NCBI GenBank assembly: GCA_040954595.2
Contig: CM082580.2
Location: forward strand, 3,400,783 to 3,464,782
DNA: 64,000 nt
Source: Balanoglossus misakiensis
Lineage: Eukaryota; Animalia; Hemichordata
Direction of reading: 5' to 3'
Shown here: one piece after another, positions 12,876 to 57,363 of the stretch
How positions within the stretch are numbered: position 1 is the first letter of the stretch
How the letters are laid out: the number at the start of each line of letters is the position of its first letter
Notes under the pieces: generated by a model
Databases searched by the model: none
Told to the model about the DNA's origin: nothing
What the model saw: only the letters and a program-made list of their open reading frames with translations
Program-made: the position numbers and the translations under genes

Positions 12876-14849
12876 TTATCTCTATGTTTACGTGTATATC
12901 TGATAACCAGTTTGTCAACTTATGCCAGATGTACCAGACTGTACCTTGGTTACATAATCGCTGTACGGTACATGCATATATTGAATGAAACTCGCGTCAA
13001 ACCGGCGGTGTATGCGCAAGGCGACTGTAACCACGAGAATCAACATTCTGACGCACGCACAGCAATTGAGAGAAGTCTAATTTTATGGCGATGACAGCTT
13101 AATTTATCAACTGTGAGTAAAATGTTCGGAAACGCTTACTGTCGCATACAAATAGTATTGGAAAAACGTTGCATGTTTACGCGACATCGGCATCAGATTA
13201 TTTTAGTCCCACGTACCGTTTTCAAAGTTAGGATATTTTGTTATTGAACGGTTTTGTGCGAGTTAGACAAAGGGAACCGGTAGACTAGAAGAGCTCATGG
13301 GAGGACCTGGCAGCATTCCAGCGGGAAGCCCAGCAGTCCAGCCGGAAGAGAAACCCAGTGGGGACGCGGTAAAACCACTGCAGCCTTCGGGAGAGGGTCC
13401 ATCGTCTGGACAGATGAGCCCAGGTGACACACCCCGTGGGGTATATAGAGATAGAGCCAGCGACGGCGGCCAGCAACGTAGACCAGGGTAAGCCGAGCAC
13501 CGAAGTCCCCCCCCCCCCCCCCCAAGAAAAGTATGTGGTCACTAGTAATGGAGGCAAGCGCCAACATGCCACCACCACCGCCTATGGTTCCTGCAGGCAT
13601 TAGGGGAGGGAACCGACCTGGAGAAGTCCAGCGTGAGAGTGGATATCTATGGAGTGTAATTCATGCCAAAATTAGCACACAGCTTTTCGATGAGAGTATT
13701 TGCGCTTTTCGATGAGAGTATTCACTTTTCGATCAGAGCACACAGCTTTTCGATCAGAGCACGAAGCTTTTCGATGAGAGTATTCACTTTTCGATCAGAG
13801 CACGAAGCTTTTCGATCAGAGCACGAAGCTTTTCGATGAGAGTATTCACTTTTCGATCAGAGCACGAAGCTTTTCGATCAGAGCACGAAGCTTTTCGATG
13901 AGAGTATTCACTTTTCGATCAGAGCACGAAGCTTTTCGATCAGAGTATTCGCGCTTTTCGATGAGAGTATTCACTTTTCGATCAGAGCACACAGCTTTTC
14001 GATCAGAGCACGAAGCTTTTCGATGAGAGTATTCACTTTTCGATCAGAGCACGAAGCTTTTCGATCAGAGCACACAGCTTTTCGATCAGAGCACGAAGCT
14101 TTTCGATCAGAGCACGAAGCTTTTCGATGAGAGTATTCACTTTTCGATCAGAGCACGAAGCTTTTCGATCAGAGTATTCGCGCTTTTCGATGAGAGTATT
14201 CACTTTTCGATCAGAGCACACAGCTTTTCGATCAGAGCACGAAGCTTTTCGATGAGAGTATTCACTTTTCGATCAGAGCACGAAGCTTTTCGATCAGAGC
14301 ACGAAGCTTTTCGATGAGAGTATTCACTTTTCGATCAGAGCACGAAGCTTTTCGATCAGAGTATTCGCGCTTTTCGATGAGAGTATTCACTTTTCGATCA
14401 GAGCACACAGCTTTTCGATCAGAGCACGAAGCTTTTCGATGAGAGTATTCACTTTTCGATCAGAGCACGAAGCTTTTCGATCAGAGCACGAAGCTTTTCG
14501 ATGAGAGTATTCACTTTTCGATCAGAGCACGAAGCTTTTCGATCAGAGTATTCGCGCTTTTCGATGAGAGTATTCACTTTTCCATCAGAGTATTCGCGCT
14601 TTTCGATCAGAGCACACAGCTTTTCGATCAGAGTTACCACCCCTCTTTTCAATGAGATCACCCCAGACGCCCCAGTTCACCAAAGAGTTTTTACAAGTCG
14701 GCTCGCTGGCGTTTTGCCTACGTCACAACGCGTCATGTCTACGTCACATGACGTCACTGAAATTTCCATTTAATTTATAGTAATATGCTAGGGAGATCAG
14801 TAGACCGGAAGGTCAAACTCTGACCACACGCGCGCACGCTTTGTACATT

Positions 14850-15950
14850 ATGGCGACTCCAGGCTCCTGTTCAGCTGACAAACTGAGACGAGCCAGCAGA
14901 CTTATGCAAATAGCGCAGTACCTCCTTGAAAGTTCTGATCCTGTGTCTGGTGCCGGTGGTTCTGCCAGCGGATCCGCCGGGGAGGCGACTGGAGCCAGTG
15001 GAGCTGGTCAAAGGCAGAGCCGCGCACATTCGCTTGCACCGCCAACACCAAATGCCGGGCCAAATGAAGAGCTAAGAATTCACATTTCTGTTCGTTTGAG
15101 CGTAGCGAATTAGGACAGAAATGTTTTCTTGGCGTTGGCTGTACACACCTGTGAGGGTTAATATGCTAATGTGAGTCCATATATAAATGCCTGTAAGTAG
15201 AGTGTAGTCCATTCTCGGGCGTCTTCGACCCAGCGAAACGTTTTCCCCCGTTTTTTTATGGCTTTTGCAGTTGCTAATGTTATTTTGCATAGTTAGTAAC
15301 TTTTACAGCTTTGTCATTTTTTTTCCGCACGTATTCATACGTGAAGTACCGTTCTCACTTTTGTACGATTTTTAGGTGTTGCCCTTCACCTGTGAGCATA
15401 TCAGCATTGTTTAAGGGTACAGGTTTCCCAGAGTTTTTTCCTTGCGTTAGAGGTTTTTATCTCTGGGTTTTTCCTGGACGGCTATATGCTATATTTTTCC
15501 CGTTTGGCATCAAAGTCTTTCAGTACTGTTCGACCTTTTTCTACTGTACAGGTACCGCCAGTATTGTGTTTAATTTTGGACGGCTGACTACAACTTCTTT
15601 TCGCATTATGCATTTTTTTTGTCTTCAATATGGTGATTAAACAACGGGGGTCACCGGGTAGAGGCGCCACCCCACAGTTAAAATAAAGTCTTTTGTGTTT
15701 TATTGGTCTTAGACCAGAACTTTGTTTCATTTTCCTGGGTCGAGAAGATGTGAGCAAAGCAGACCGTCTTTAAGCAATGCGAAGAAAAGAACAAAGACTA
15801 AACACCTGAGTCGGCCATGGCATACGCCAACATGGACACATAAGTTCTGCTGTTTGTCTGACACGGACTGGGAACACGTGCCCACAATCTCGGAAAAAGA
15901 AGAACTCCGGTCTATTGGACTGGGCATGAAAAAATACGTTTCTACAACGA
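14850..15950 (+). pseudogene. Internal gene remnant of the foldback element
   Basis: ORF pieces MATPGSCSADKL... and ...WTHKFCCLSDTDWEHVPTISEKEELRSIGLGMKK. The W-T-H-x-F-x-C-L...PT..EK..L...GLG-x-K motif resembles N-termini of TE-borne G2E3/HECT-like proteins as I recall them. Truncated. Confidence 0.4.
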
Positions 15951-16374
15951 CGGTGACCGTTTCGAGATCGCTATAAGACCCCCTAAGCTCACCCCAGTAG
16001 ACCTGACATACTCTCATCGAAAAGCTGTGCGTTCTCATCGAAAAGCTTTAGTGCTCTGATCGAAAAGCTGGGTGTTCTCATCGAAAAGCTAGGTGCTCTT
16101 ATCAATAAGCAGGCGCCCTCATCGTAAAGTGGGGGGACGTGGTAACTCTGATCGAAAAGCTGTGTGCTCTGATCGAAAAGTGAATACTCTCATCGAAAAG
16201 CGCGAATACTCTGATCGAAAAGCTGTGTGCTCTGATCGAAAAGTGAATACTCTCATCGAAAAGCTTCGTGCTCTGATCGAAAAGCTTCGTGCTCTGATCG
16301 AAAAGCTGTCTGCTCTGATCGAAAAGTGAATACTCTCATCGAAAAGCGCAAATACTCTGATCGAAAAGTGAATA

Positions 16375-17120
16375 CAGTAGACCCTCGCTAAGTCGCGCCT
16401 CAATAAGTCGCGGTTTCAGCTAAGTCGCGGGTTACAGTATGGCTCCCATTATTTTCTTTGTTTTTCCCCCGACATTTTGCTTTGTCGGCCACATCTCAAA
16501 ATGTTTCAGTAATTTTGTATTTCTTTGCGCGCGGCCGATCGACTGAGGCGCATCACCAGGGCCAATAAAGGTGTGAACGTGTTGCGGTATGTCAAAATGA
16601 TCGAACATGTCAATCACGGGAGTTGAGAAAATACGCAATAAAGTGGTGTCGCGGTTTGCCTTTGACGGTACGGCCAAACAATTAACGGTGCCTTTGATTA
16701 AACGTGTGATGCCAATTTTCACGATTTCTTGGCGGCACGTCTTTGCAAGAGCGCTATAAAATGTCCAAGCAATTGGAATGGTTATCATTCTGACCTCACG
16801 TTTCGAACTGAGCAGTATGTCTAAGCGAAAGTTGGCCAGCGTTTCCGTCCGCGAGAAACTTTCAGCGATCGAGCGAGTCAAGAACGGCGTAGCGAAAGCG
16901 AAGGTTGCACGTGATTTGGGTGTAGGCGAGTCCACTATCCGAGGGTGGATGAAGACCGAGGAAAAGCTGCGACAGTTTGTTTTCGAAGTCGACGAAATCG
17001 CGTTTTCAGTCAATACCCCCCCCCATCCCCCTTTTCATGGCCCCTCGTTAAGTCGCGGCCCTCGTTAAGTCGCGGTTTTCCCGATGGACCCCACACCCGC
17101 GACTTAGCGAGGGTCTACTG
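16375..17120 (+). mobile_element. Internally deleted Tigger/pogo element nested in the right arm of the foldback element
   Basis: TIR CAGTAGACCCTCGCTAAGTCGCG / CGCGACTTAGCGAGGGTCTACTG with TA TSD (16373-74, 17121-22). It retains the CENP-B/psq-type HTH MSKRKLASVSVREKLSAIERVKNGVAKAKVARDLGVGESTIRGW from 16817 but has no DDE domain. Confidence 0.9.
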
Positions 17121-17891
17121 TACTCTCATCGAAAAGCTGTGTGCTAATTTTGGCATGAATTACTCGCTCTGTCAAGTCCCGGGCTGTGGTGTGAGGACCA
17201 GGAAGTTGAAGCTGCATTGTTTTGCTTAGTCTAGAATCTATCCGTTCGTAGTCGCATTCACCCTACTACCGTCTAGGAACGCCTAACCAAAATCTAGTAA
17301 GGCCATAAAAATGGTAATTTGAATGTGAATAGTCTCTAACTGAGCAGTCTGACGTCAGAGAAGTCAATCACTTACGTTGACCGACTACTGATTGGCCGTT
17401 GATGGCATGGGTGTTTCTTCATTATTATTCATATATGCCCAATTATGGCACATGTTGCGGCTGCATTGACAATCGCAGGAAATTCGCACATGATAACAAA
17501 ACTGCGTTCTCTAACAATGTAGCGATTTGGATAAGGATTTAGATTGCTGGCAATTAACATGCTGCGTTTCCTAGAAAAACAAAATTATATACTTGTTGTG
17601 TACTTTAAAAATCCAAACACAAACAGCCATCGTTTGCCGATTTTATCGAGAGACTGAACAGTGAGCTACCTTATGAAGCTTGCCCGTCGATGTTTATATC
17701 TTGATGTTATCAGTCGTACATCCGCATTTTGTAATGTGTGGAATAGGCCGTCACAGAAGGATCGGCACTTTTCATCACGATATCATCTCTAATGAAACAA
17801 ACAGTAAAAATCAAGCGATGAACATGAAATTGATACAGAGACACGCGTGTTGTCAGCCTTTAATAGCTAGTCACTCAGTTGTACGTCAACT

Positions 17892-20241
17892 ATGGCCTCG
17901 ACTCCTACAAAAACCCCCGTGAAAAGCTACACATATCGAGTAAACGACTTCTGCCGATGTTGTGGCGACTACTTGGGTAGAGCACGCGCATGGGAGATAT
18001 TAGGGAGGCGAGATGGTGAGCCGCTCAGCGTTAGACTGGCCAAAGTTACGGGTGCCCCTGTCACTGAATCGATGGATATGCCAATCCATATGTGCGGCAA
18101 ATGTTGGCGAGATTTGCCCAAGATTGAGTACGCGCTCTTGCGACAAAAAGAATGGTACGCAAACATCACTAGACGATCAAAACAGATCGTACCAAGAGAG
18201 GCTGTAGAGAAGAAAGTGGTACAACTCAGTCGCCATTCAGAAAACGTTTGCCTACATGTATATTTCCCAAGCAGGATTTACGGGACGGCAAAACTACAAC
18301 AATCGTAAGTAAAATAATATTGATAATTAAGCCACCTTGAAACCGGTCAGTGTAAATAGACTGTGTCCATGAAAGCGCAGAGAACCCTAAAATAATTAAA
18401 TAAATGTACGAAAATGAAAAAATAAAAAATAAAAAGGGTTTCCTTACTACATGGACTATTTCCTGTAACATGCTATTTTTTTAAAACTAAGCTGAATGAC
18501 ATGCCACATTTCCCCCAAATGATATGCATGACATCATTTAATCAAGAAAATACAATAATTTTATGCAAAATAATGTAGTGTGAAAAATGATAACATAATG
18601 TAATAATGAGTAAAAAAGTTTAGGGTCAGGAGTGGGGGTTGAACTAGGGTAGGTCTGGTTACATGAAACGCACATGTATTTTAGGCCTTTAGGTACTTTA
18701 AAATCACAGTTTATATTTGATAGAGTTTTTGCCAAAAGATAAAACAGAATTTCGGGAGTGTCACTTAGCACTAAAAAAACTTGTTGATATATCATGAAAG
18801 AAAAATTCCATTGTTACAAATATTATAGATGTAGAATAGAATGAGTACTGTTGTTTTCTCTTCTTCGTCATGTCCCATATACCACATTTATAAACACGAA
18901 AAAATATTTTATTCATATTTCTGTTTTCTTCTGTACAGCAACCAACTGCTAGTCTAGAATCTATGGGTACATGGCAAGGGAAATTTGGCAACACTGTAAC
19001 TGACACCCTAGAGAAAAGTGTTGCAACAAAGATAAAACTTATTATCAACAAAGAGTGCCAACAGCTTTCAAAGAGAGACTCTCTCCTCAGGAAAATAAAA
19101 CCAGATAATATCAAGACTATCAAACTGCAACGAATGTGGGATGAACTTGATGTACACGCACCAGTCTTCAGTAGTGTACTACAAAGTGCATGTGGCAAGC
19201 CTGATGAAAATAGTTTGGCACATGTTTGCATGGCTGCATCAGTTTGTTTGAGAAGCAGGGATGCAACCATGTCAGCATTATCCCATGTGGTAAACACAGT
19301 CCTACTCAATGGCAATGCCAAAAAGAAAGTCTTTGACAGGCTTAGTAAGTTTGGTATTTCTACTTCCCATAATAAGGCTATACTAAAACAGAAAGAAATG
19401 GCGGTCGGATTTGATGATGAAATACACAAGTGGAAACAACCATTGTCAGACAAATGGGAACTTTTTCAGTTGAACACAGAACTACAATCATACCTACAAC
19501 AAAATCATCCCAATGGTGTTACACTAGAAGCTACCACAAGACAACCAAATTGTGATGTCAGTTTTGACACTATTGATGTGGATGATCTCCAGGACCTGGG
19601 GCTGTCATTTTTGTATGGTAATGAAATGTGCCATTCAAGTACTGCAGGTGATAACAATCAACAACCTGTACCAATCTACGTGTTGGACAAAAGATCCATG
19701 TTAAACACATTTCAAAGGTTCTCTGACCGCACTGTAGAGACAGCACGGGAAATCCTAGCCAAGAGCCAGTCACCAGAGTTAGTCATCACATCTGCAATTG
19801 TTCAACAGATTCTGAACTCCCTGGAATGCGAGCAGTTGCACTCATACACAATTGTTGGTGACAATTTAGATTTTTATGTCACAACAAGAGATGAAACAAG
19901 TCAACGACAAAATAAATCTATTCACTGGTTTCATCTTTATGCTGTGAAGGATCGTGTCCCATTCATCACTCTATCAACAAATCCTCAGAAACCAATCACT
20001 GAGTTTGACTTCAGTGAGGTATTGCCAGATCTAGATACACAGCAGCAGCTACAGAGAGATTTTATTCCACTGGTTACCAGAGTTATGGTAAAGTACCTAC
20101 CTGCTTTCCAGTGTTTTGCAGATGTAGTTGTCCACCACATACCCCACAAGTATAGTGAAGAAATGATCAAGAAGTCAGAACATGTAAGTAATTAGGGTTT
20201 CGAGACCAGAGGGGTCTCGAAACCCTCTTGAAATCGTGTTG

Positions 20242-20274
<33 letters not shown>

Positions 20275-21960
20275 CTTCCCACTCTTAAAAACAGCCGCTA
20301 TTCGAAGACCGTTGCACCCAATGACTTGAAATTTGGCTCATAGGTAAAACTCAAAGCAAGTAATTTTCTGATCATGTCACTATGGCAACAGGTCACATGA
20401 CCTGGCAGCCATCTTGGATTTAAACTTTTAAATTGGTCTCATTTGCATAACAAATGACGAATCCAAATTCTGTTCAGAAACTTTGTGGACCATATGGCCA
20501 GGGTCCTATATGCCAAATTTCAATGTCTAAGTCCTTGCCGATTTTGAGGAGATGATTTTTAAAGCATTATTTTTCATATTTTCCATGACCATTGGACCCA
20601 GCCATTGGCCTATACTTTCCATGGTTAAGCTATGGCCCCCTAGGATTTTAGATTTATGCCCAATATCTCAACATCCGCTGGGCTGATCAGCTTCAAATTT
20701 TGTGTGCAGCTAGCCTACCTTTCGACAATCAGTTCCAACTGAAAAAAATAATATGAAAAATCGACCGATTTTTTTATATTAATTTTTTTATGAAATCTAT
20801 ACCTATACTTATTCCACTTTACTTAAGCTATGGTCACATAGTTTTGTAGAATTCTGGTCGGTGCAAGTCTGCAGCATAGGACCAAAATAAGAAGCCAAAT
20901 TTAAGGCTCACCTGTGACACCTGCTCAACTCATTAATTATGTGCATACCTAATTCCAGGCAAACCAATAGGGCTACAGGTCTGGTTTTTGTCGGACATGG
21001 ACCAGTATGGGGTCAAATTTTTTTCCCTAACTTTGGATGTCCTTGGGTGACCTTTGACCTACTTTCACATATCTCGGCATCCAGAGCAGGTACAGCTTAG
21101 GTGTTTGGACAGACGGGACCAAAATAAGACGCCAAATTTCAGAGTCACCTATGACACCTGCCTAACTCATTAATTATGTGCATACCTAATTCCAGACAAA
21201 CCAGTAGGGCTACAGGTCTGGTTTTTGTTGGACATGGACCAGTATAGTGTAAAAATTTTCTGCTCATATTAAGCGTGACCTCACGTGACCTTTGACCTAC
21301 TTTTCCACATCTCAGCATCCACAGCACATACACCCTTGGCATTTGGAGTGATAGAACAACTAATGCAGTAATTAAATATGCACAAATCTATCTCCAGGTG
21401 AACCAATAGGGCTAGTAGTGTCTCGAAACCCGCTTATTGCTGTTCACAGCTATATTGTTTAAACTGTAATTAGGTTAGGCAGAATAACAATATGGTCCCC
21501 AGATGAATCACAGCTTCTGCTTCTCTTGACTTGGATTGTGCTACCAAAATATATCTTTTATGACAATGCAATTTCCAGTATATATGTACACTCTAGGGTG
21601 AGTAAATACAAACTAGGATTTCCAGGACCAGTATGTGTAATATCAAATTTGACAAAGATCTCATATTTTTTGTTCAATATTTTGCATTGACAGATACCTC
21701 TAGGACTTGTTTTTAAAAATGAAAATGATTCCGGTGATATGAAAGACATCCTACATGAAGTCCAGGCACATTTTGTACCAGATATACATGTAGATGGGAA
21801 GTGTGACAAATTCCCAATTGTCTTCATTGGAGACCAGCTCACAGAAGAACGGGCAAGGCATGTGCAGTGGTCCTTCACAGATGGTGATAACAGAGAAGAA
21901 AAACTACAAGGTGTTATACCTCAATTTGCTGATTGGCATGCAGTAGTAAACCTGTATGAG
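17892..21960 (+). pseudogene. Truncated intron-containing Academ(H)-type transposase (DUF6589-like) with an N-terminal C4 zinc finger
   Basis: Exon 1 has CRCC...CGKC. Exon 18939-20183 has GDNLDF..RQNKSIHWF..AVKDRV..IPHKYSEEM. It splices in phase to exon 21694-21960 (IPLG..NEN..GDQLTEERA..ADWH). The exon 1/2 phase is unresolved and the 3' part is missing. Candidate TAGTCT terminus at 17227. Confidence 0.75.
20191..21456 (+). mobile_element. Helentron-associated non-autonomous element (HINE/DINE-1-like) in the Academ intron
   Basis: 5' palindrome AGGGTTTCGAGACC..GGTCTCGAAACCCT, (TTA)n microsatellite, internal ~237-bp tandem duplication (20881/21118), 3' sub-TIR TCTCGAAACCC, then a short hairpin GCTG-TTCA-CAGC and TATATT. 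Confidence 0.7.
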
Positions 21961-22209
21961 GTAATTTTTGCTTCCATTTGCTATTGTTTTATAGCAGAGG
22001 GAACATAAGGGATATGTCTCCTTCCTTTGTTTCTCTGTCTGTCTGTCTGTATACATGCATGTCTGTGTGTGTGTGTGTCTGTATGTATGTGTGTATGTGA
22101 GTGTGTGTGTTCATAAGAAGTTCAGAACCAATACATGAATTGACCCGGTTTGCAGATGGGCGCCACCTTACAAGACAAGCCTTGATTTTTACCTTGTTTA
22201 CTTTTACAG

Positions 22210-22510
22210 AGAGTCTGTACGTGACATTATAAACATACTTCAACCAGGAAGACTGGCTGCAAAGAGATATGGGAGATTAAGAAGACGTCAATACAAACTA
22301 AAAAGGCCCTAATCATATAAGTTAAAGCCTTTTGGGATCTGCATTCATGCAGCAATCGATGGCTGGAGTTGTTGAATCGTGTGGGCTGAAGTTGGAATAA
22401 CCAACAACAACCCAATAGTAGTGGCTAAGTACTATAGTGATGCGGTAAAAAAGTTAAAAGGTGTGCCACAAGTAATCAGATTGGATCCTGGTACAGAAAA
22501 TTGTACTATT
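22210..22510 (+). pseudogene. Integrase-core (IS3EU-like) transposase fragment
   Basis: Translates RLRRRQY..GPNHI...LKPFGICIHAAIDGWSC*IVWAEVGITNNNPIVVAKYYSDAVKKLKGVPQVIRLDPGTENC, with internal stops and a deletion. Confidence 0.75.
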
Positions 22511-22843
22511 GTGACAAAACACTTTTAAGGGAACAGCACAATGATAGCTAAAATTTTGAACTGAATTGTAAGAAATTTGTTTAATTGATGAACAGCTAGA
22601 GGTCACGAAGAGTGCACCCTCTACATTTGTTAGTGTTACTCCAATCATGCTTTACTGTTATTGGATTCCCACCATTTTAGCAGTTTCCTTTTTATGGAAG
22701 CATTTTTAATGAGGCACAAATAACAGATAAATGAACGTCAACAACGATCCTGCTTTGTCTGCAAGGTTCCTCTACCAAACCACGAAGGCCCGTCAGGCAA
22801 GAATTGTCATCTGAACAGCAAAAATCCGTTTCGATATACGAAT

Positions 22844-23620
22844 ATGACAACAACTTCAAGTTCCTCTGAGGAAGATACATGTAAGGTAATGCAAACCCCA
22901 CCCACAGCCGCAGCGACCACTCTTTCATCATCGGCATCCCTTTCACCCGCAGAAAAATCGGACATGCTATTGGCCATTAAGAAAGAGAACGAGCAACTTC
23001 AGCTTGATTTACAGCTCGAGGCAGAGATTGCCAAAAGGAATCGCTGAAGCGACAGGCCAAATGTCACAATATGCAGCATCAGACAAAATCCAGTAGTCAG
23101 AAAGAAGTTTTAAGGGCAAGAAAAGCTCTTCATGTTGCCAACACTGGTGGCAAAGAATCTCACAGTTCAACGCCACATTCCACTGATAGTGATACCTCTG
23201 ACGACTCGGATGATGGGCCGAGTACAAAGACAGTCGCATCCAAAGGTAGGCAGCTCGCGTACGATCAATTCACATCTAAAAATAAGAAAAAGAAACCAAA
23301 ACTGGTTCAGCAAGGCGAGCCAGCGACCAAGTCACATACATTGTCCGCTAGCCACACGAATACCACAGTCGAATATCAGGCTCCGATTCCACTGGGGATG
23401 AGTTGACCCTATGCACAGCTGTCATTACCAGCCTTAGTACGTGGGGAACTATTCATTTTATTCAACAAAGAACCTCACCAGTATCGCCAAGCAAGAGCAG
23501 AGCATCTCACAGAAATCCTCCACTTAGCTGAATTATACATGTGGGAAGAAGTTCGTTTATATCATGCAGTGGTTTTGAAGATCATTGAATAAAAGAGTAT
23601 CTCAAGACTGGTGCGGTGAT
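22844..23620 (+). pseudogene. DIRS/Ngaro-type ORF1 (gag-like) fragment
   Basis: A Ser-rich/coiled-coil N-terminus, then YAQLSLPALVRGELFIL..AEHLTEILHLAELYMWEEVRLYHAVVLKIIE*, a pattern typical of tyrosine-recombinase retroelement ORF1. Contains stops and frameshifts. Confidence 0.5.
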
Positions 23621-23834
23621 TTTTCCTGGGTGAAGGCCAGGGAAGGAACACCAGCCAGCCAAGATATTGCGCAGAATAGGTCTGTGGCTAATTGCGGCCA
23701 AGAGAAACGCCTATCTATAATCCAGACCAACCGATTCCTTATTTGACGTTGTTTCCGTCTGTTTCGAATACCGAACCACTATAACGTATTCACTTTCTAA
23801 AATGTCGAGTGAATCTACAAGTTGGCATTTGGGT

Positions 23835-41100: not shown

Positions 41101-41104
41101 TTAA

Positions 41105-42149: not shown

Positions 42150-42510
42150 GTCCAAGTTAGAAGTGTACAAACCTGAAGCTTGGCTAGCATACGACAGACA
42201 TTTCACCTGAACATGGCTTATTTAAATTGCTACCCAGGTCAAAAAAGGTGGAGCACACCAGATTCCCAGCTCAAGTTTATTTCCACTTCTAACAAAACCC
42301 TCACCGCCTGGTACCAAAGTGTTTTGGTAGCGGTCAAAAAGGGCACCTGAAAACTAAATGCCACACCTACGCACGCAATCCATACTGCAGCCAGGGATAG
42401 CTCCATGAACCGAGGTCAACCAAGCAGCACCGTAACTTCGAAACAGCCTCCAGTATGCTGGCAGTTCAACAAGGGGAACTGCAAAAGCCCTAGACTCTCA
42501 CACATGTTCC
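42150..42510 (+). pseudogene. DIRS/Ngaro gag fragment with a CCCH-like finger (second copy ~48540-48830)
   Basis: YKPEAWLAYDRHF and PVCWQFNKGNC. Confidence 0.5.
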
Positions 42511-42619
42511 CTCTGCTTAGCTGTCGACCATGGTGCATTCAACCACCACCAAAAAGCACCCATCAAGCCGCAACAAACTTCACAGCCCTTTTGTGCCAAC
42601 ACTTAACCCTTAAGCCAGA

Positions 42620-43250
42620 GATGGCAGGTATGCAGAGAGCATTAGCTGACACAGTATGCGAAGAAATTTCTCAGACAATTTCTAACTCGCTGCTTGGCAT
42701 ACTTGTCGACAAAACAGTAAATGTCACTGTTCATTAGAAGCTGATAAGATAAAAGAAGATCAAACAATACTCTATCTTGGCCATCACGCATTTGTTGATG
42801 GATGTCTTGCCGATCATGGACCGTTGTAATCTTGTATTTCAACGAGAAGATGTCAACTTGGCTACTATTGAACTGATGGTCCAGTCAACGGTCGCGTCTC
42901 TACAGCTGTTATTAGAACCAGACATCGAGGCGAACATGAGAGCGCGCTAACGAGGGAAATTGATAACAATGTATATCGTGGCCATTTTCTGAGCCACGCA
43001 GCTGCCAATAATATCCAAGGTTACGCTAATGTTATAGGCGTGACTTCATAACGTATCTAATCAACCGAATGCAAGCACGATTTCCCAGTGAATGTACCAA
43101 TCTACTGACATGTCTCGATAAAGTTTTCAATGCCAGCAAATATCCAGATCATGATGTTGAGATCCGTGAATATGGCATGGCACAGAGTCTCTGGCGACAC
43201 TGATTGCCCATTTCGGTGTCATTCGCGTTGAAGATGGCGTGCCAACTAAA
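42620..43250 (+). pseudogene. ZNF862-like hAT transposase fragments (second copy ~48957-49580)
   Basis: Across the two copies: GILVD(K/E)TVNVTV, LAITHLLMDVLPIMDRCNLVFQREDVNL and MQARFP..KVFN...YG...LIAHF, with stops and frameshifts. Confidence 0.7.
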
Positions 43251-44312
43251 TGTGATGAAGTTTATTATTTGTTTTGTTTCATGGCCAGGTGCACCTATGT
43301 TGATTGCTTTATTTAACATATAAGTGTGACAAGGTGTTAATTAGTTTTGGTCGTATAAAAGCCACCCAGTGCCATGTTGTCGCGTGGCTCATTTGATTCT
43401 GGTCTGGTAGCTGTGCCGTCGCCTTGGAGGAGTTTTTGGAGCCCACCGTACGAAGTGTCTGTCTACTGTGGTAGCTGAGGATTGACACTGCTGAAGGGAC
43501 TTGTGAAGTAGTGGTGGATGTTTTCGAGGACGCCGCGTGGAATTTGGGAGCCGTCCTGAGGGAGCACGTTTCCGGGTCACTGTGGAACTGTATTTGAGGT
43601 AATACGTGACTGTCTTTTGAACACTGGCGTAAAACGGACAGAAAGGCCGGAATTGTTGTGCGTCGAGCGAAAAGCCAGTATCGTCGTGCGTCGAGTCACC
43701 GAACTGTTTGTTAGATTTTGAACTGGTTAGGAATTTTGTCGGTCACCAGGTCACGCTCGAGTTTAGTTTGTAGTTTAGTGTAAAAATTATTTAACATATT
43801 GTGAATATTACTCGTATCTGCAATTAAATTAACACTGTAAATAGACTGGTATGTTGTACGTGTGCTGTCTTTGACTATTTCCTTTGCTGCAGCCTGTTGG
43901 CCGGTTCGGATGTAAAACAAGCCACCCGGTCAGGTAAATTGGCCTCTCTATTATCCGCTTATATTTGGCTCGGACGGCCTGCGGGTCGTAACACGATGGA
44001 AGCCCAAAGACATGGGCCCGATTGGAAAGCCGAGTTTACTCAGATGAAACTGACTATGTGCATTGTCGGTTACACCTCTGGTTCAAGACACATTGGAACG
44101 AAAGGGTTTAGATGGGACTTGGCTTGCATAGCCAGTGGAACGAGCGTCTTAAAAGCGACATGCTCGTTGTCGGTGTGGTAGGTTTTGCTGTGCTCAGCTT
44201 CGGACATATTTTTGTGTCACGTGTTTGCATACGTTTGTAGTAAGCATCCGATTAGAGGGAACAACACCTGCGAATGTGCAAGAGTATATAAACGGGTGTT
44301 TCATGGACATTT

Positions 44313-46730: not shown

Positions 46731-47399
46731 GCACATAACACGAATAAAATATTTTTTTATCTATCACCTAAGATTTGTCATTTATCTGTTTTTTTTTAAA
46801 TATTCCCCACCACCAATGCAACAGCCCCTTACATAAAGACTTAGTCCTTTAGTGATAGTATGTTTAATCGATGAAGACCATATTGCAAACATATTGAAGC
46901 AAATGCCAAAACAGTTAGAAACAAATAACGAGAGCAGAGAGCACCAACATGAATTGCCAGAATTACGCTGTTGAAGATGCCTTTGTTTTTCATAGACTCG
47001 AGTTTGTTCGGGAAGCTATCATGCGAAATGATTGGCTAGGCCTGCAAATTTCGTCACAGTGAGGAGCACATGGAAGAATGGGGTAAGGAACACTTGAAAG
47101 TGAGGCAGGGACAAGAACATAAGGCAGTCAATGAATGAGTCAATGAATGAGTAGTCCTACTGTATTGCAAGGACCCCCTAAGCTTTGGAATAAAGTTGTA
47201 CTTGTTATGGCAGCCATCTTGTCCAGCTCTATACCTGAGGGCAACAATATATCTGAGCTGCCCTCGAGCAAACATACATTTCATATGCTTATTATACAGC
47301 AATATATCTGAGCTGCACTCGGGGAAAACTTACATTTCCTACGCTTACTCAGCAATGCCTATTTTTCCGTTATTTAATATTTTACAGGATGTATTCTTC

Positions 47400-48225
47400 A
47401 GTACTTTCCGTTGTTGAATCAAGATTACGTAAGGAGCCAACTGGCGTTCAGCGGAAAGTGAATCAGAGGAACAATTTGTCAATAAACATCTTGCCTCCCT
47501 TTCTGAGAGAGGTCTTGGGCTATATACAAGTCTGCGGAAGCAAAAAGATGGGGCCTCCTATCATTTTAAGTGTGAAAGAGGAGGTAAAAGCAAAGGGTAA
47601 ATCATCTGGAGCTGCAAATCTGACACACGCTCATGGCTGCAACTCGTACGTGTCTTTTAGTTTCACCAAAGTGGGTACCCATCAGGTGTGTGTTGTCAGA
47701 TTACAAAGTCACCATGTGGGACACTATTTGTTTAACAGTGATGACTATCGCGTTAACAAAATATCACCTGAGCTGACTGAACTAATAAGGCTCTCGACCT
47801 TCCAAAATTTGCAGGTCAGTGAAATCATTGTGAAGTGCTCTCATTTGGCACAAAAAAGAGGGGACGTTGACATGAAAAACCGCCAGTACTACCCCACACC
47901 AGCAGATGTAACATATCTTCGAAACAAGACCTTGGCTGAAACCAGGTTTGATCAAAATAATGCCATCAGCGTAGATAAATTATTGAAAAGTGATCTACAC
48001 GCAAACATCATCCACTATCAACCACTCTCCAAAGCTGCCAACCAACCATTAGAAATAGTATACACGAGTCCCTTTCAGAAAGACCAATATCTGAAATTTG
48101 CAAAAAGTATGGTATTTATAGATGCTACATACAGAGGAATAAGATATGCTGTAATTGTCAAGAATGGTGTTGGGCACGGTGTACCTATTGCATTCAAGAA
48201 ATCAGTATTGTCCAGTGCGCGATTA
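47400..48225 (+). pseudogene. MULE transposase fragment, copy 2
   Basis: GCNSY..HHVGH and MVFIDATYRGIRYAVIVKNGVGHGVPIAF, with a +1 A frameshift near 47586 relative to copy 1. Confidence 0.65.
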
Positions 48226-50875
48226 AGTTATCTCAAACGCTCATATGTCGAGGCAGAGTACTCAAAGAAATTGTATACCAAATTCACTGGTCATTATCAC
48301 AAGGTGATTGCTGGAAGAGGTTTAAGAACGGACTAGCTGATTTACATCATATTCGTCCAGTATTAGCCCAGACTACCAAAACGTACTTCTCGTTAGATCC
48401 AGAGAATCCCGGGGCACTACCTTTACAACACGTGTCAAGCGCACGAACAATGACTCTTTTGAATCATGATCCCAATGTTTTGCAACGTTCCAAGCGAAGC
48501 CATTCACCTGTGTAATTACTACTGCTTTATCACGTCCAAGACAGAATCGTACAAGCCCGAAGCTTGGCTAGCATATGACAAGGTAATTTCGCCAGCTCAG
48601 TTTTTTTCCACTTCCAACATAACCCTCACCTCCTGGTACCAAAGTGTTTTGGTTGCGGTCAAAAAGGGCACCTGAAAACTAAATGCCACACCTACGCACG
48701 CAATCCATACTGCCAGGGATAGCTCCATGAACCGAGGTCAACCAAGCAGCACCGTAACTTCGAAACAGCCTCCAGTATGCTGGCAGTTCAACAAGGGGAA
48801 CTGCAAAAGCCCTAGATTCTCACACATGCTCCCTCTGCATGCTCAGCTGTCGACCATGGTGCATTCAACCACCAACACCAAAAAGCACCCATATCAATCC
48901 GCAACAGACTTCACAGCCTAAGCCCTTTCGTGCCAACACTTAACCCTTAAGCCAGAGATGGCAGGTATGCAGACAGCATTAGCTGACACAGTATGCGAAG
49001 AAATTTCTCAGACAATTTCTAACTCGCTGCTTGGCATACTTGTCGACGAAACAGTAAATGTCACTGTTCATTAGAAGCTGATAAGATAAAAGAAGATCAA
49101 ACAATACTCGTTCTTGGCCATCACGCATTTGTTGATGGACGTCTTGCCGATCATGGACCGTTGTAATCTTGTATTTCAACGAGAAGATGTCAACTTGGCT
49201 ACTATTGAACTGATGGTCCAGTCAACGGTCGCGTCTCTACAGCTGTTATTAGAACCAGACAGTCGAGGCCAACATGAGAGTGCGCTAACGAGGGAAATTG
49301 ATAACAATGTATATCGTGGCCATTTTCTGAGCCACGCAGCTGCCAATAATATCCAAGGTTACGCTAATGTTATAGGCGTGACTTCATAACGTATCTAATC
49401 AACCGAATGCAAGCACGATTTCCCAGTGAATGTACCAATCTACTGACATGTCTTGATAAAGTTTTCAATGCCAGCAAATATCCAGATCATGATGTTGAGA
49501 TCTGTGAATATGGCATGGCACAGTCTCTGGCGACACTGATTGCCCATTTCGGTGTGATTCGCGTTGAAGATGGCGTGCCAAATGTGATGAAGTTTATTAT
49601 TTGTTTTGTTTCGTGGCCAGGTGCACTAATGTTGATTGCTTTATTTAACATATAAGCGTGACCAGGTGTTAATTAGTTTTGGTCGCATAAAAGCAGTGCC
49701 ACGTTGTCGTGTGGCTCATTTGATTCTGGCCTGGTAGCTGTGCCGTCGCATTGTCGCGGAGTTTTGGGAGCCCACCGTACGGAGTTTGCCTGTCGACTGT
49801 GGTAGCTGAGGATTGACACTGCAGAAGGGACTTGTGAAGTTGTGGTGGATGTTTTCGAGGACGCCGCGTGGAATTTAGGAGCCGTCCTGAGGGTGCGAGT
49901 TTCCGGGTCACTGTGGAACTGCATTTGCAGTAATACGTGGCTGTCTGTGGACTACGCGGTGAAACTGCATTGGAGGTAATAAGTGGCTATCTTTTGAACA
50001 CTGGCGTAAAATGGACAGAAAAGCCAGAATTGTTGTGCGTCGAGTCACCCAACTGTTTGTTAGATTTTGAACTGGTTAGGAATTTTGTCGGTCACCTGGT
50101 CACGCTCAAGTTTAGTTTGTAGTTTAGTGTAAATATTATTTAACATATTGTGAATATTACTCATATCTGCAATTAAATTAACACTGTAAATAGACTGGTA
50201 TGTTGTACGTGTGCTGTCTTTGACTATTTCCTTTATTGCAGCCTGTTGGCTGGTTCGGATGTAAAACAAGCCACCCGGTCAGGTAAATTGGCCTCTCTAT
50301 TATCCACACACTTTTGGCTCGGACGGCCTGCGGGTCGTAACACGATGGAAGCCCAAAAACATGGGCCCGATTGGCAAGCTGAGTTTACTCAGATGAAACT
50401 GACTATGTGCATTGTCGGTTACACCTCTGGTTCAAGACACATTGGAACGAAAGGGTTTAGACGAGACTTGGCTTGCATAGCCAGTGGAACGAGCGTCTTA
50501 AAAGCGACACGCTCGTTGTCGGTATGGTAGGTTTTACTGTGCTCAGCTTCGGACATATTTTTGTGTCACGTGTTTGCATACGTTTGTAGTAAGCATCCGA
50601 TTAGAGGGAATAACGCCTGCACAGGTGACCCTAACACCTGCGAATGTGCAAGAGTATATAAACGGGTGTTTCATGGACATTTTTGCCATTACCACTACAG
50701 ACCATGAGTTTGATGGACCGAAAGTTTTCTGAAGGCAACCCGAAGGATTCGCCACCTGGAATCCAGTGGAGCAGGCAGCAATCGCTATGATGTAGGCACT
50801 CCTCTTAGGAAGGGAATGGCCAAGAAACAGAAGGCAAAGAAACGACTTTTGAGCATCAGATTCAAGGAGATGGAG

Positions 50876-53177
50876 AAGAAACCTGGTGGGAAACGTAATC
50901 CCAAGTCCGATCGACCTGTTGTCGACTCAAACGGTGACACAGAAGCTCCATCCAGGAGTGATGAGGTGACTGCAGAGGCTGACTTACAAGCCAATAAGCA
51001 GCAGAAGCCTGGTGGGAAACGAAAGCGCAAGTCCGATCGACCCGTTGTCGACTCAAACGGTGAGACAGAAGCTCCACCCAAGAGTGATGAGGTGATTGCA
51101 GAGGCTGACTTACAAGCCAATAAGCAGCAGAAGCCTGGTGGGAAACGAAAGCGCAAGTCCGATCGACCCGTTGTCGACTCAAACGGTGAGACAGAAGCTC
51201 CACCCAAGAGTGATGAGGTGATTGCAGAGGCTGACTTACAAGCCAATAAGCAGCAGAAGCCTGGTGGGAAACGAAAGCGCAAGTCCGATCGACCCGTTGT
51301 CGACTCAAACGGTGAGACAGAAGCTCCACCCAAGAGTGATGAGGTGATTGCAGAGGCTGACTTACAAGCCAGTAAGCAGCAGAAGCCTGGAGGGAAACGA
51401 AAGCGCAAGTCCGATCGACCCGTTGTCGACTCAAACGGTGAGACAGAAGCTCCACCCAAGAGTGATGAGGTGATTGCAGAGGCTGACTTACAAGCCAATA
51501 AGCAGCAGAAGTCTGGAGGGAAACGTAATCGCAAGTCCGATCGACCCGTTGTCGACTCAGACGGTGAGACAGAAGCTCCACCCAAGAGTGATGAGGTGAT
51601 TGCAGAGGCTGACTTACAAGCCAATAAGCAGCAGAAGCCTGGTGGGAAACGAAAGCGCAAGTCCGATCGACCCGTTGTCGACTCAAACGGTGAGACAGAA
51701 GCTCCACCCAAGTGAAGCTCCACCCACGGTGAGACAGAAGCTCCATCCAGGAGTGATGAGGTGATTGCAGAGGCTGACTTACAAGCCAGTAAGCAGCAGA
51801 AGTCTGGAGGGAAACGAAAGTGCAAGTCCGATCTACCCGTTGTCGACTGAAACGGTGAGACAGAAGCTCCATCCAGGAGTGATGAGGTGATTGCAGAGGC
51901 TGACTTACAAGCCAGTAAGCAGCAGAAGTCTGGAGGGAAACGTAATCGCAAGTCCGATCGACCCGTTGTCGACTCAGACGGTGAGACAGAAGCTCCATCC
52001 AGGAGTGATGAGGTGATTGCAGAGGCTGACTTACAAGCCAGTAAGCAGCAGAAGTCTGGAGGGAAACGTAATCGCAAGTCCGATCGACCCGTTGTCGACT
52101 CAGACGGTGAGACAGAAGCTCCATCCAGGAGTGATGAGGTGATTGCAGAGGCTGACTTACAAGCCAGTAAGCAGCAGAAGTCTGGAGGGAAACGTAATCG
52201 CAAGTCCGATCGACCCGTTGTCGACTCAGACGGTGAGACAGAAGCTCCACCCAAGAGTGATGAGGTGATTGCAGAGGCTGACTTACAAGCCAGTAAGCAG
52301 CAGAAGTCTGGAGGGAAACGTAATCGCAAGTCCGATCGACCCGTTGTCGACTCAGACGGTGAGACAGAAGCTCCACCCAAGAGTGATGAGGTGATTGCAG
52401 AGGCTGACTTACAAGCCAGTAAGCAGCAGAAGTCTGGAGGGAAACGTAATCGCAAGTCCGATCGACCCGTTGTCAACTCAGACGGTGAGACAGAAGCTCC
52501 ATCCAGGAGTGATGAGGTGATTGCAGAGGCTGACTTACAAGCCAGTAAGCAGCAGAAGTCTGGAGGGAAACGTAATCGCAAGTCCGATCGACCCGTTGTC
52601 GACTCAGACGGTGAGACAGAAGCTCCATCCAGGAGTGATGAGGTGATTGCAGAGGCTGACTTACAAGCCAATAAGCAGCAGAAGTCTGGAGGGAAACGAA
52701 AGCGTAAGTCCGATTGACCCGTGTCGACTCGGACGGTGAGACAGAAGCTCCATCCAGGAGTGATTAGGTGATTGCAGAGGCTGACTTACAAGCCAGTAAG
52801 CAGCAGAAGTCTGGAGGGAAACGTAATCGCAAGTCCGATCGACCCGTTGTCGACTCAGACGGTGAGACAGAAGCTCCACCCAAGAGTGATGAGGTGATTG
52901 CAGAGGCTGACTTACAAGCCAATAAGCAGCAGAAGTCTGGAGGGAAACGAAAGCGTAAGTCCGATCGACCCGTTGTCGACTCAGACGGTGAGACAGAAGC
53001 TCCATCCAGGAGTGATGAGGTGATTGCAGAGGCTGACTTACAAGCCAGTAAGCAGCAGAAGTCTGGAGGGAAACGTAATCGCAAGTCCGATCGACCATTT
53101 GTCGACTCAGACGGTGAGACAGAAGCTCCACCCAGGAGTGATGAGGTGACTGCAGAGGCTGGCTTACAAGCCAGTAC
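50876..53177 (+). repeat. 126-bp minisatellite, array 2 (~18 units)
   Basis: Same unit, with array-specific variants (PPKS/PSRS, EVIAEADLQ) and a few stops and frameshifts (~51713, ~51848, ~52715). Confidence 0.95.
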
Positions 53178-53179
53178 CC

Positions 53180-54790
53180 GTTCTGTTACCCCAAGTGCAA
53201 CAGATGAAAGCCGTGAGACCCCCCCCTCTCATAAGATCCATCTGCTGCTCAGATGAGCCCTCATCAGGCAGCTGCTTTGACTTCCACTGGGAAGGTGTCT
53301 TTCGCAGCATGAGGACAGCGAGATATTTTCCGAACCCCTGTTCAAGAAAGAGCGTGGACCCACGTTTACTATGCCAACACAAGCACGGGAGTTGGAATAC
53401 TTTCTGAATTTCATATCACCGACCATTATCACTTTGGCAGTGTAGGAGACGAAAAAGTATGCCCGTATCACCCATGGTTCATCGCAAAAAGAATCGACTC
53501 TGAGTGGCGAGCCACCTCTTACCGAGAGATGCAAGCCTTTCTGGGTGTTGTCATCATCATCATGGGCCTTGACCGCAAGCATGCTGAGGGCGACTATTGG
53601 TCCAGCGACATTTTCCTGCATAATGTTGGCATATCGTCAGTCATGACCCGTCAACGCTACCATAGGTTGATGTGGTATTTCCACTTGGCCGACACCCAGG
53701 AGGATCCAAGACGAGACGCTGACCCGAACATACGGTCACGCCGTTGTCAGGACGATCCACTGTGCCCCTTGTAAACAGTTGCGTACACAACTATCAGATG
53801 GTACAAGAAAATCTCCATCGATGAAGGCATGGTGAAATTCAAAGGACGTTCGAAATTAAAACAGAGGCTTCCCCACAAGCCAGACAGGTTTAAGATATGG
53901 CAGTTGGCGGAATCGACCACATCTTATGTGGCAAACTTTGCTCCCTACCTGGGGGTGAAGTACCTCGACAGGAATGACGGCCAGGAAAAAACAGGAGAGG
54001 GGAGTGGTGAAAAGAATAACGATTGAACTTGTTCAGCCGTTCTGCGGGTACAACCACATCCTCTTCTGTGACAGCCTCTTCACAACTGTGTTAACTGCGA
54101 GAGAACTGATGGAGACGGGCATGTATATGGTTGGAAGCTTCAACCGACGTAACCGTCGGAGTATGCCGCCCATGCTTATTCCCCCTGGGAAAAAGAAGAA
54201 GCTTCCACTGAAGGTCGGTGAAATGAAGGCAGCCACCCGAGTCGATTGCCGAATCAACCTGACAGCTTATCAGGATAGCAATGCACAGGTGTTGATCCTG
54301 AACACCGTTTATCCACCACTTGACACGGAGACGGTTGGCAGTGGTGAAGAACAGAGAAAATGTGCCCCCGAGTTTGACGAAGTACCGCCACTACATAGGA
54401 GGCATTGGCAATGCTAACCAGAAGCGAAAATACTACCACTGTGGGCGAAAGAACAACCGCTGGTGGGTATACATGGACTGGTACCAGATGGATGTAGAAA
54501 TGCGAATGCATACATATGTTTCAAAAACCTGAATCCCCAGACCAAGGTGAAGGACAAGTTCTTCAACCTACGTGTTTGGAAGCCAGCTCATTGCCAGATT
54601 CACCAGTCGTGGTCAAGGCAACGGACGCGAAATAGAAAATACCGTTACTGCCAGCTCTTTAATTTTTCCCAGGAAACATACCCCAGCACGTCGCCAGTAG
54701 ATTACCTTGATGGCAGAAAACCTGCAAGCTATGCAGCAGGGAAGGCAAGAGGACCTATTCTGGAGGCGGTCTCAAAACGACTGGGCAGCC
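53180..54790 (+). pseudogene. piggyBac (PGBD4-like) transposase pseudogene
   Basis: EMQAFLG..MGL..DYWS..VMTRQRY..YFHLAD, SIDEGMVKFKGR..QRLPHKP..FKIW, HILFCDSLFT, YRHYIGGI...Q...YY..RK..RWW. Multiple frameshifts and stops. It directly follows array 2. Confidence 0.9.
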
Positions 54791-57363
54791 CAACGGACTA
54801 CCGGGTAGGTGGTCCGGTAGCGTTAGGTTAAGAATCTATAAAACATGAATTCTACCCAATGAATGAATTACCTTAGAATTTCACAACTGTGACATAATTC
54901 GCGGGTTATGCAAAAAAGTATGTATTATTGACCATAAGAAATTTTTCGTATGCATTTTTCTGTTGGCAATGCATAACTGTAAACAAATAATGACGTCTGT
55001 CAGTAGCACTATTTTGTCAGTGAAATGGCTTCATTGTTTTCCCTCCAACCAAAGTTGAAACAGAGTTAAATATGCACAGCTTGAAATCGTAAAATGTTGC
55101 AAAATCAAACCAACAGTTAGGTCAATGATAACGTTCTTACAGCTATTATTAGAACCAGATAGTCTCAGGGAACAAGAACCATGGGCCTGATTTGCAAGCA
55201 GAGTTGGAACTGAGTTTGCCTGCACATGGACGCGCAAGTTTCAGTGAATATTATTGTATTAAGATATGAATATTAAGAACTGTTCTCTGTGTTCCGATTG
55301 TTAGCCTATAGCTCTGGTCATTCCCTTTTTTTTCTGTGCCATGTGAACAGGATTTCAGTTGCGAGAACTGCCGGTTCTAAAATAAAAGCACAAAAGTGTG
55401 CCTAAATTGCCTGGGCGACGAGCACGCCGAATTAACATGATGCCTCTTACCGACAGAGAGACCACCAGTAGCCGATTTTTTTCGAGAAACTTTGCGTACA
55501 AATATAGATCCCAGTAAATTTTACTATACATTCTTAATAATAATTAATTTACTGTCATATATACACGCTTTTGCACATACAATGAAAAGTGTCATGGTTT
55601 TTCAAGATAGAAAAGAACATGGAAAGGTTTGAGAAAAAACGTACAAACAGAATGTAAAGAACAGTGTCTAGGAATAACGCAAAGACTCCAGATCTTTAGA
55701 ATGAAAAAGCTATGGGAGACGAATTTGGTGAACTTCCACAGCACACGGTTTGAATAAGAGCCGACAATAATTAGGAGTTTTCTTATCTAGGAACTGAGGA
55801 ACACAGGATCAACAACCGATCTATTTGCTCAATAATCGAATACATATGGATATAAAGAGGCGGGAATATTCAATTGAATGTTTTTCCTAACAATGGTTTC
55901 TAAGCATTTTATAACAATTGATGTAAGAGCTATTCGGCGGTAATCATTTCAGCCATTGACTGGTGAAAGTTTTGGAACAGGAATCATAATAGACTTTTTG
56001 AATATATTAGGAACATGATGAATTTTCAAGACAAGTTAAATATCGTACTTAAGATTTCACACAATTCTGGTTTACATGAATTGTGTTCAAAAGTATTATG
56101 ACTGATAGTGTTTGTTAGAGCACCTGTATTCCAAATAAGCATGCTGTCAGTGTATGTACGATTGTGATTAATTTTTTTTCTTCAAAATTTGCTTCTCTTA
56201 ATGATTATGAATACCTATTAATTCATGCTTCAAAATTTTATCCTTTTACCTGAAATTTTATAAAATTTTGGAGGGTTGCATGTATTTTGAAGTTCTTGAG
56301 CAATATTTTAGCCATAAAGTAGGTGCAATACCCAAAAATTGGTAGCTATGAATTCAGAAAACATGCCCCAAAAATACAAAATTTTCATTTTCAGCACAAT
56401 TTTGATATATCACAGTAAGAATTCCCCTGGAAACTGCAAACTAAATTGCAAAGCAATCAGACAAAAATGGCAAAAATTGCCGACAAAAAACAATATTGAC
56501 ACTTCCATCATAGGGTTTGTTAAATCGTCATGAAAACACATCTAGCAAACCAAATTTTAAAGAAATGTCGTTAGAGATTTCTGAGTATTTGACAAAAACG
56601 GCAACAATCTCCCTAAAAATGTACTTCAAAAAATGAAATAAAATCTGAAAAAGGTCTGCATAAACAAAAACACACCAATTTCTAAAGCAATCTGACCAGT
56701 AAATTTATGAGTTGCTGTGTTTTGACCAATTTCACAAAACGGGACCCAAAGAGTAAAAGACATTTCAAAGATTGAACAATTAAAGTCTCACATATCTTTT
56801 TCCAACAGTAAAATTTTTCAAATCTTCTCTCAATACTTTAAAATCACCACCATTAAGCCATATTACTTGCATTTGCATCAGTTTGTCATCTCACATACCA
56901 CACTAGTTGTTTACCACCTTTGTGTGGAGGCCAATTAAACAGCACCCATTTAATATCTGACTTCTTTAAATTGAAACATACAGCCACAATGTATACCTAT
57001 CATTAAGCTTATTTAGAAGGACCAATTTAAAATGGAAAGTAAACTCATGAAAATAATGAAAAAGTTGCAACTATTGGGATTTTAACTAGCTGAGTGCGAG
57101 TCTAATGATATAATGTTGACGGTGAGGTTTGGTTGTAACAACATAGCTATGAAAAACTTCCTTCTTTCTGTAAAAGTTCTTTATGTATACGTGTATGTTC
57201 TACTCTGAGACAAAAAATGTGTTGCCACGTTTCTTAGCCCTTTCAACAAATGTCAGGGACCAGATTTTTTTAAAGTAAAATTTCGAATGACTTTGGGGTA
57301 ACTTTTTACCTACTTTACCATGTATCAGCATATTGGGTAGCATGGAACACCGAATGGCTTACC

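What the first reader, a model, noticed from the sequence alone, without database searches (positions are those of the whole stretch)
13290..54830. 40-kb mosaic of co-oriented fragments from many transposon superfamilies: candidate uni-strand piRNA cluster
Seen: every TE coding piece I could recognise reads on the + strand. These are the foldback cargo, Tigger, Academ, IS3EU-like, DIRS gag, BEL, RecQ, solo LTR, several hAT pieces, DIRS RNase H and recombinase, NOF-like, MULE and piggyBac, roughly 15 independent pieces. I recognised none on -. Most are 0.2-1-kb coding scraps without termini, abutting one another. Established: this orientation bias characterises uni-strand piRNA clusters such as Drosophila flamenco, where TEs lie antisense to one long transcript. 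Inference: a TE-memory locus transcribed on the - strand, unusually rich in DNA-transposon and DIRS fragments.
Basis: partly seen in the sequence, partly recalled or inferred. Interest (0 to 1): 0.85.

Follow-up and report, generated by a model that had tools for sequence, protein, structure and literature searches.

The report
One-way transposon archive beside caveolin
A 41-kb stretch of what is likely an acorn-worm genome is packed with pieces of many unrelated jumping genes whose recognisable coding parts all face the same way, a layout that likely marks a locus read from the opposite strand to make transposon-silencing small RNAs (piRNAs), although no RNA could be examined.

Summary
The orientation bias is real. 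In a strand-blind Pfam scan of 352 ORFs (166 +, 186 -), all 10 ORFs with transposon-type domains were on +. With homology searches, 12 of 12 tool-supported pieces read on + (p=0.0005; 9 of 9 after merging possibly related pieces, p=0.004). Corrections: the BEL element is intact and young (identical 306-bp LTRs, 5-bp target duplication); 39.3-53.2 kb is a 7-kb tandem duplication; several pieces keep termini and introns; some labels stayed unverified. The neighbouring caveolin (closest named hit Ptychodera flava) lies wholly outside the block. Best reading: a uni-strand, transposon-antisense piRNA source locus transcribed on -, like the slug clusters in PMC11615739 (0.62). Defining features (piRNAs, precursor) were untestable: no RNA run was listed and no genome is held. 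Against: poly(A) signals are not depleted on -, there is no in-genome background, and the window was picked for its bias. The scan noted similar loci in this genome (e1-10617498) and in at least 7 genomes. A new candidate member of a known kind.

The parts
9183..11880 (-). Caveolin gene, left neighbour (not part of the block); coding exons 10398-9183, predicted TATA box near 11877 and first donor near 11787
   Evidence: Pfam Caveolin 6.9e-17; P. flava caveolin-1-like 79%; residues 1-172 all map within 10398-9183; promoter predicted from motifs
13656..17163 (.). Foldback-type element: 43-bp perfect terminal inverted repeat, 21/62-bp arrays in both arms, unidentified internal sequence; no target duplication seen
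   Evidence: cargo ORF 14784-15110 had no Pfam match
16373..17122 (+). pogo/Tigger-type deletion derivative nested in the foldback right arm, with CENP-B N-terminal HTH
   Evidence: Pfam 2e-13; inverted ends with TA flanks; family name recalled
17871..21990 (+). DUF6589 gene fragment with zf-AD-like N-terminus (Academ-like by recall); keeps a 1.5-kb intron 20186-21690
22139..22600 (+). rva_4 integrase-core fragment (IS3EU-like by recall)
   Evidence: Pfam 1.3e-6, above cut-off
22724..23830 (+). gag-like fragment, by eye only
   Evidence: HMM E 0.55, not significant
23835..29891 (+). Intact BEL/Pao LTR retrotransposon: identical 306-bp LTRs, 5-bp target duplication TGGGT, one stop-free frame of 1,774 codons
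29950..31700 (+). Unidentified exon-like pieces, possibly with a ubiquitin-like fold
   Evidence: Atlas scores under 0.9, lead only; no Pfam match
32160..32708 (+). RecQ/DEAD helicase N-terminal fragment between 8-bp direct repeats; absent from the paralogous junction near 39149
   Evidence: Pfam DEAD 2.6e-7
34189..34927 (+). Solo LTR with 4-bp target duplication ACTG; TATA box near 34386 precedes ATTAAA near 34770
   Evidence: sequence; orientation inferred from motif order
34984..35963 (+). hAT transposase C-terminus with retained intron 35620-35735
   Evidence: Pfam weak; tblastn 1.3e-13; splice sites
36200..36540 (+). DIRS-type RT/RNase H C-terminus
36713..37490 (+). Fragment of an unnamed DDE-like family (NOF/MULE-like by recall)
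   Evidence: tblastn 8e-36 to P0073; homologues carry no convincing Pfam family
37940..38655 (+). Frameshifted DIRS-type tyrosine recombinase
   Evidence: homologue P0054 is from Glandiceps talaboti
39263..46406 (+). Duplication copy A: MULE piece, DIRS gag C-terminus, hAT-like piece (by eye), LTR-like 43326-43994, 126-bp array; carries a TTAA-flanked MITE (41105-41838) absent from copy B
46406..53176 (+). Duplication copy B, 3.8% diverged outside the arrays; MULE frame 47257-48333, gag C-terminus 48487-48826, 126-bp array
53200..54827 (+). Frameshifted piggyBac-type transposase with right end followed by TTAA; matching left end not found
   Evidence: Pfam DDE_Tnp_1_7
55451..55563 (-). Speculative promoter and first exon: TATA-like box at 55563 and splice donor at 55451 in a CpG-intact patch (55.2-55.9 kb)
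   Evidence: 61 of 1000 shuffles give such a pair, and the test was post hoc

Best explanation
The 13.3-54.8-kb block is a dense, one-way patchwork of transposon DNA that is likely transcribed as one long RNA on the - strand, which would be antisense to every captured piece and is predicted to be cut into piRNAs that silence the matching active elements. Shown: co-orientation, diversity, capture as genomic DNA (introns and some termini kept), continued insertion (intact BEL; a MITE in one duplicate only) and local duplication. Inferred: elements insert in either direction, selection keeps the antisense ones, and deletion and duplication compact them. Untested: the transcript, its promoter (weak candidate near 55.56 kb) and the piRNAs.
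For: 12 of 12 tool-supported pieces on +, two-sided p=0.0005; 9 of 9 after merging the three DIRS pieces and RecQ with DUF6589, p=0.004; 14 of 14 with two LTRs oriented by motif order, p=0.0001. About 34.4 of 41.5 kb assigned to mobile-element pieces, by-eye pieces and arrays included; no host exon recognised on - among 186 ORFs. In loci of another animal, transposon ORFs beside DIRS were mixed: 9 same, 6 opposite, 7 with DUF7869, among 59 ORFs scanned. The youngest insertion follows the bias. Same layout as a top slug cluster (PMC11615739 section 9); orientation scans were validated in Drosophila where small-RNA data existed (PMC10643416).
Against: AATAAA on - is not depleted: 22 seen against 14.1 +/- 3.6 expected over the block, 16 against 12.1 +/- 3.4 in unique sequence. 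No strand asymmetry of transitions between the duplicates (48 A/G, 49 C/T). Codon-model test weak. No background from this genome, and the window was selected for its bias, so the p-values are optimistic. About 7 kb is unassigned and non-coding pieces cannot be oriented. An intact BEL with two forward LTRs could transcribe the + strand.
Confidence: 0.62

Rival explanations
1. The block is a long intron of a - strand transcript (for example a distal first exon near 55.5 kb spliced to caveolin's first coding exon at 10401, or a lncRNA); sense insertions were purged for disturbing transcription and no piRNAs are made.
For: Caveolin is on - just left of the block and its first coding exon starts at a splice acceptor; a TATA-donor pair lies on - at 55563/55451. 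Repeats are antisense-biased in transcribed regions (PMC1391917).
Against: All caveolin coding exons and a proximal TATA-donor pair lie left of the block. [quoted passage not shown] Density and diversity are far above the flanks, where Pfam found no transposon family.
Confidence: 0.13
2. An ordinary heterochromatic transposon nest; the one-way look comes from chance, local duplication and picking the most biased window.
For: 14 kb is a tandem duplication and three smaller segments recur; only 9 strictly independent pieces remain; 87 windows of this genome were read.
Against: p=0.004 at the strict count and 0.0001 at 14 pieces; neighbours were mixed in control loci; many unrelated coding scraps abut with little spacer.
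Confidence: 0.1
3. A relict or converted cluster: once uni-strand, now silent or producing piRNAs from both strands.
For: Most pieces are frameshifted; uni-to-dual conversion is proposed in Drosophila (PMC10643416 discussion); poly(A) signals are plentiful on -.
Against: The newest insertion, a BEL with identical LTRs, still follows the bias (one case).
Confidence: 0.08
4. One giant composite mobile element (Helitron-like or Pack-type) that captured transposon pieces in its own orientation.
For: Co-oriented capture is known for Helitrons (recalled, not read here); the block starts at a foldback and ends at a piggyBac end.
Against: No paired ends enclose the block: the piggyBac end has no partner and the foldback closes at 17163. 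No Rep/helicase gene was found; nested insertions have their own target duplications; the scan's index holds no look-alike stretch.
Confidence: 0.07

Closest known systems
Uni-strand transposon-antisense piRNA clusters of the slug Arion vulgaris (PMC11615739; read: abstract, sections 9 and 15, passages)
   Same: Densely packed transposon fragments on one strand; piRNAs come from the other.
   Different: piRNAs are shown there and untested here; the passages read do not list the transposon classes; different phylum.
Drosophila flamenco and flam-like clusters (PMC10643416; read: abstract, sections 8, 13, 24)
   Same: Transposon-dense block with strong co-orientation that can be found from sequence alone.
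   Different: Those capture Gypsy/ERV remnants for ovarian somatic cells and were sought in 100-kb windows; this 41-kb block is mostly DNA-transposon and DIRS pieces, with one BEL and two LTR remnants.
Lymnaea and Crassostrea piRNA clusters (PMC6128900; read: passages)
   Same: Enrichment for DNA transposons (Kolobok, hAT), BEL and young elements.
   Different: The passages read give no orientation tally.
piC-DoG read-through clusters of mammals (PMC11615739, section 15)
   Same: Dense fragments next to an intact host gene.
   Different: On - this block lies upstream of caveolin, not downstream; no gene was recognised in the right flank to drive read-through.

Membership tests
Uni-strand transposon-antisense piRNA cluster | High density of transposon remnants over tens of kb | tested here: met
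   about 34.4 of 41.5 kb assigned, by-eye pieces included; flanks show none by Pfam
Uni-strand transposon-antisense piRNA cluster | Remnants share one orientation | tested here: met
   12 of 12 tool-supported pieces, 9 of 9 on the strict count
Uni-strand transposon-antisense piRNA cluster | Long single-strand precursor antisense to the remnants | not testable with these tools
   no reads available; indirect footprints were negative or weak
Uni-strand transposon-antisense piRNA cluster | Abundant 24-32-nt 1U PIWI-bound RNAs from one strand | not testable with these tools
   no small-RNA data available
Uni-strand transposon-antisense piRNA cluster | Bias exceeds the genome's own background | tested here: inconclusive
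   no genome held; control only from another animal, 9 same against 6-7 opposite
flamenco-like cluster in the strict sense | Dominated by Gypsy/ERV LTR elements | tested here: not met
   no Gypsy coding piece detected; two LTR remnants and one BEL among mostly DNA-transposon and DIRS pieces
piC-DoG | Lies directly downstream of a host gene on the transcribed strand | tested here: inconclusive
   no exon recognised in 52 ORFs of 40 aa or more at 54.8-60.2 kb; sequence beyond the window unseen
Composite transposon | Paired ends and a target duplication around the whole block | tested here: not met

The most novel reading that the evidence does not exclude
A hemichordate piRNA archive driven from a promoter near 55.56 kb whose first exon splices 45 kb away onto caveolin, so the cluster is the 5' intron of an alternative host transcript (upstream of a gene rather than downstream). 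It still traps active elements and compacts DNA-transposon and DIRS genes into short antisense scraps. This would be a first cluster for the phylum and a new host-gene geometry.
Probability: 0.07. Interest if true: 0.7.

Novelty: new member of a known kind. Interest (0 to 1): 0.42.

Why it matters
If piRNAs are confirmed, this is a compact, mappable uni-strand cluster in a hemichordate. Five full-text searches (listings only) showed no paper describing piRNA clusters in that group. It has defined edges, a promoter candidate and datable events (young BEL, 3.8%-diverged duplication, MITE in one copy), so the trap model and the open question of cluster promoters (PMC11615739 section 15) could be tested with one small-RNA and one stranded RNA library. 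The mechanism itself is established in other animals.

Tried and rejected
No genome is held, so no species repeat library or background tally. No RNA holder was listed for 29900-39800; this says nothing about expression, and no reads were laid. Homologue search for the MULE frame: none among 1,582 candidates. A BEL stretch found no relative in viral contigs. tblastx of 15 unassigned or flanking stretches against the 80 loci gave 1 low-complexity hit. Stop-read-through Pfam scans added only rva_4 (1 of 24 frames with a transposon family; 0 of 18 window frames). Rfam: no match. Poly(A)-signal depletion, splice-donor bias and mutation asymmetry as transcription footprints: no support. A LINE-like RT scrap on - at about 55.8-56.0 kb, seen by eye outside the block, was not confirmed by Pfam, PDB or tblastx, so it is not used as evidence. 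Coding intron of caveolin: rejected. cDNA capture: not supported, since introns are kept in two pieces. Composite piggyBac: no left end. The AcademH paper (PMC7165386) is not held, so the Academ label is unverified. No supplements were read.
Full report
Setting. No genome is held for this window. The left flank has BRICHOS-like exons on + (weak Pfam match) and a caveolin gene on -. The closer of two caveolin homologues found is Ptychodera flava caveolin-1-like at 79%, and a recombinase homologue is from Glandiceps talaboti, so the animal is likely an acorn worm. All 172 residues of the P. flava protein map within 10398-9183, left of the block. The right flank is AT-rich with an 886-bp tandem array from about 57.5 kb.

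Orientation, strand-blind test. I scanned 352 stop-to-stop ORFs of 50 aa or more between 12 and 56 kb (166 +, 186 -; array-internal ORFs left out, 7 shortened) against Pfam. Ten ORFs carried transposon-type families and all were on +; three of the ten were weak (zf-AD 0.0024, hAT 0.002 and 0.013). No - ORF matched such a family. An outside library of 595 ORFs from 80 DIRS-anchored loci hit 15 of 15 bins on +; 8 are BEL, and the library favours DIRS. Its phmmer hits on - inside the block were microsatellites, also seen in a reversed control, and one shadow ORF. A loose search gave 6 of 16 rows on - at E 0.004-0.04, expected with 595 queries. A codon model trained on the BEL frame favoured + in 100 of 165 windows against a mean of 89 of 167 in shuffles, a weak signal.

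Orientation, targeted tests. Reading stops as X gave an rva_4 integrase on + at 22.1-22.7 kb. A search with one + frame of 36.2-38.7 kb returned RT/RNase H proteins, tyrosine recombinases and an unnamed family, which map back to 36259-36460, 38040-38640 and 36713-37490 on +; 1 of 12 bins was on - (E 0.002). The Atlas placed 47257-48333 with MULE-clan clusters, though Pfam and a homologue search were blank. A gag profile hit 48487-48826 on + (E 1.5e-4). The tally is 12 of 12 tool-supported pieces (p=0.0005), 9 of 9 after merging possibly related pieces (p=0.004), and 14 of 14 with two LTRs oriented by TATA-then-ATTAAA order (p=0.0001). These values ignore that the window was chosen for its bias. 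In loci from another animal, transposon ORFs beside DIRS were 9 same-strand and 6-7 opposite among 59 ORFs scanned.

The BEL element (23835-29891) is whole: identical 306-bp LTRs, target duplication TGGGT and one open frame. The stretch 39263-53176 is a tandem duplication of about 7 kb with 167 substitutions in 4,355 aligned columns; 32 of 97 transitions are at CpG, which suggests germline methylation. Termini survive on the pogo-type derivative, the solo LTR, a MITE and the right end of the piggyBac. The foldback cargo, the gag-like piece at 22.7-23.8 kb, two hAT-like pieces and a zf-AD-like piece were not confirmed by any tool. Academ, IS3EU, NOF and Tigger are recalled names; PMC10799480 passages only support that DEAD helicases occur in AcademH, KolobokH and Helitron elements.

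How it was built. Shown: pieces are genomic DNA, since the DUF6589 gene keeps a 1.5-kb intron and the hAT piece a 115-bp intron with canonical ends. Insertion continues: the BEL is young, and a TTAA-flanked MITE sits in copy A only. Local duplication and deletion reshuffle the pieces. Inferred: antisense insertions are kept because a - strand RNA turns them into guides.

Transcription footprints. AATAAA on - is not depleted (22 seen, 14.1 expected). Transitions between the duplicates are symmetric (48 and 49). A TATA-like box at 55563 and a donor at 55451 lie on - in a CpG-intact patch beside a CpG-poor region; 61 of 1000 shuffles give such a pair and the test was post hoc, so it is only a lead. 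The same rule picks out a predicted caveolin promoter.

Comparison. It would work like slug uni-strand clusters, where piRNAs come from the minus strand over densely packed plus-strand fragments (PMC11615739 section 9), and like flam-like clusters found by orientation scans and validated by small RNA where data existed (PMC10643416). It fails the strict flamenco test of Gypsy dominance. DNA-transposon-rich clusters are known from the pond snail (PMC6128900). [quoted passage not shown] Five searches listed no paper on hemichordate piRNA clusters (listings only). Earlier notes of this scan describe a similar locus in this genome and 14 findings in at least 7 genomes; these are unchecked and are not counted as support, but they supplied the acorn-worm lead and two papers.

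Verdict. The co-oriented mosaic is real, with the corrections above. A uni-strand piRNA source locus is the most likely function (0.62), but its two defining RNA features could not be tested. Novelty: new candidate member of a known kind. Interest 0.42.

Noticed in passing
window 44292-46406 and 50714-53253: 126-bp arrays (13.5 and 17.9 copies) read as 42-residue basic/acidic repeats in long + frames; copy B runs into the piggyBac piece, so they may be an expanded transposase N-terminus.
   Followed up: partly
window 32711-33139, 39144-39590, 46406-46727: Three copies (87-93% alike) of an unidentified proline-rich coding-like segment on +; no Pfam match.
   Followed up: partly
window 32155-32238 and 38997-39075: Two hairpins at fragment edges: one at the start of the RecQ piece, one a perfect 23-bp stem.
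   Followed up: no
window 34189-34927 and 43326-43994: Both LTR-like pieces share a layout: a repeated motif before the TATA box and its reverse complement after it.
   Followed up: partly
window 55790-56032 (-): LINE-like reverse-transcriptase scrap on the opposite strand just outside the block, by eye only; not confirmed by three tools. No LINE piece was recognised inside the block.
   Followed up: yes
window 12008-12874: MITE-like element with 45-bp inverted ends carrying eight telomere-type hexamer repeats, between caveolin and the block.
   Followed up: no
window 57509-64000 and 20879-21347: 886-bp CpG-poor tandem array with one inverted piece; the same repeat family lies in the DUF6589 intron.
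   Followed up: no
window 37560-37860: Coding-like + strand piece not covered by the neighbouring family's homologues; unidentified.
   Followed up: partly
window 5672-7200: BRICHOS-like exons on +, converging on caveolin.
   Followed up: partly
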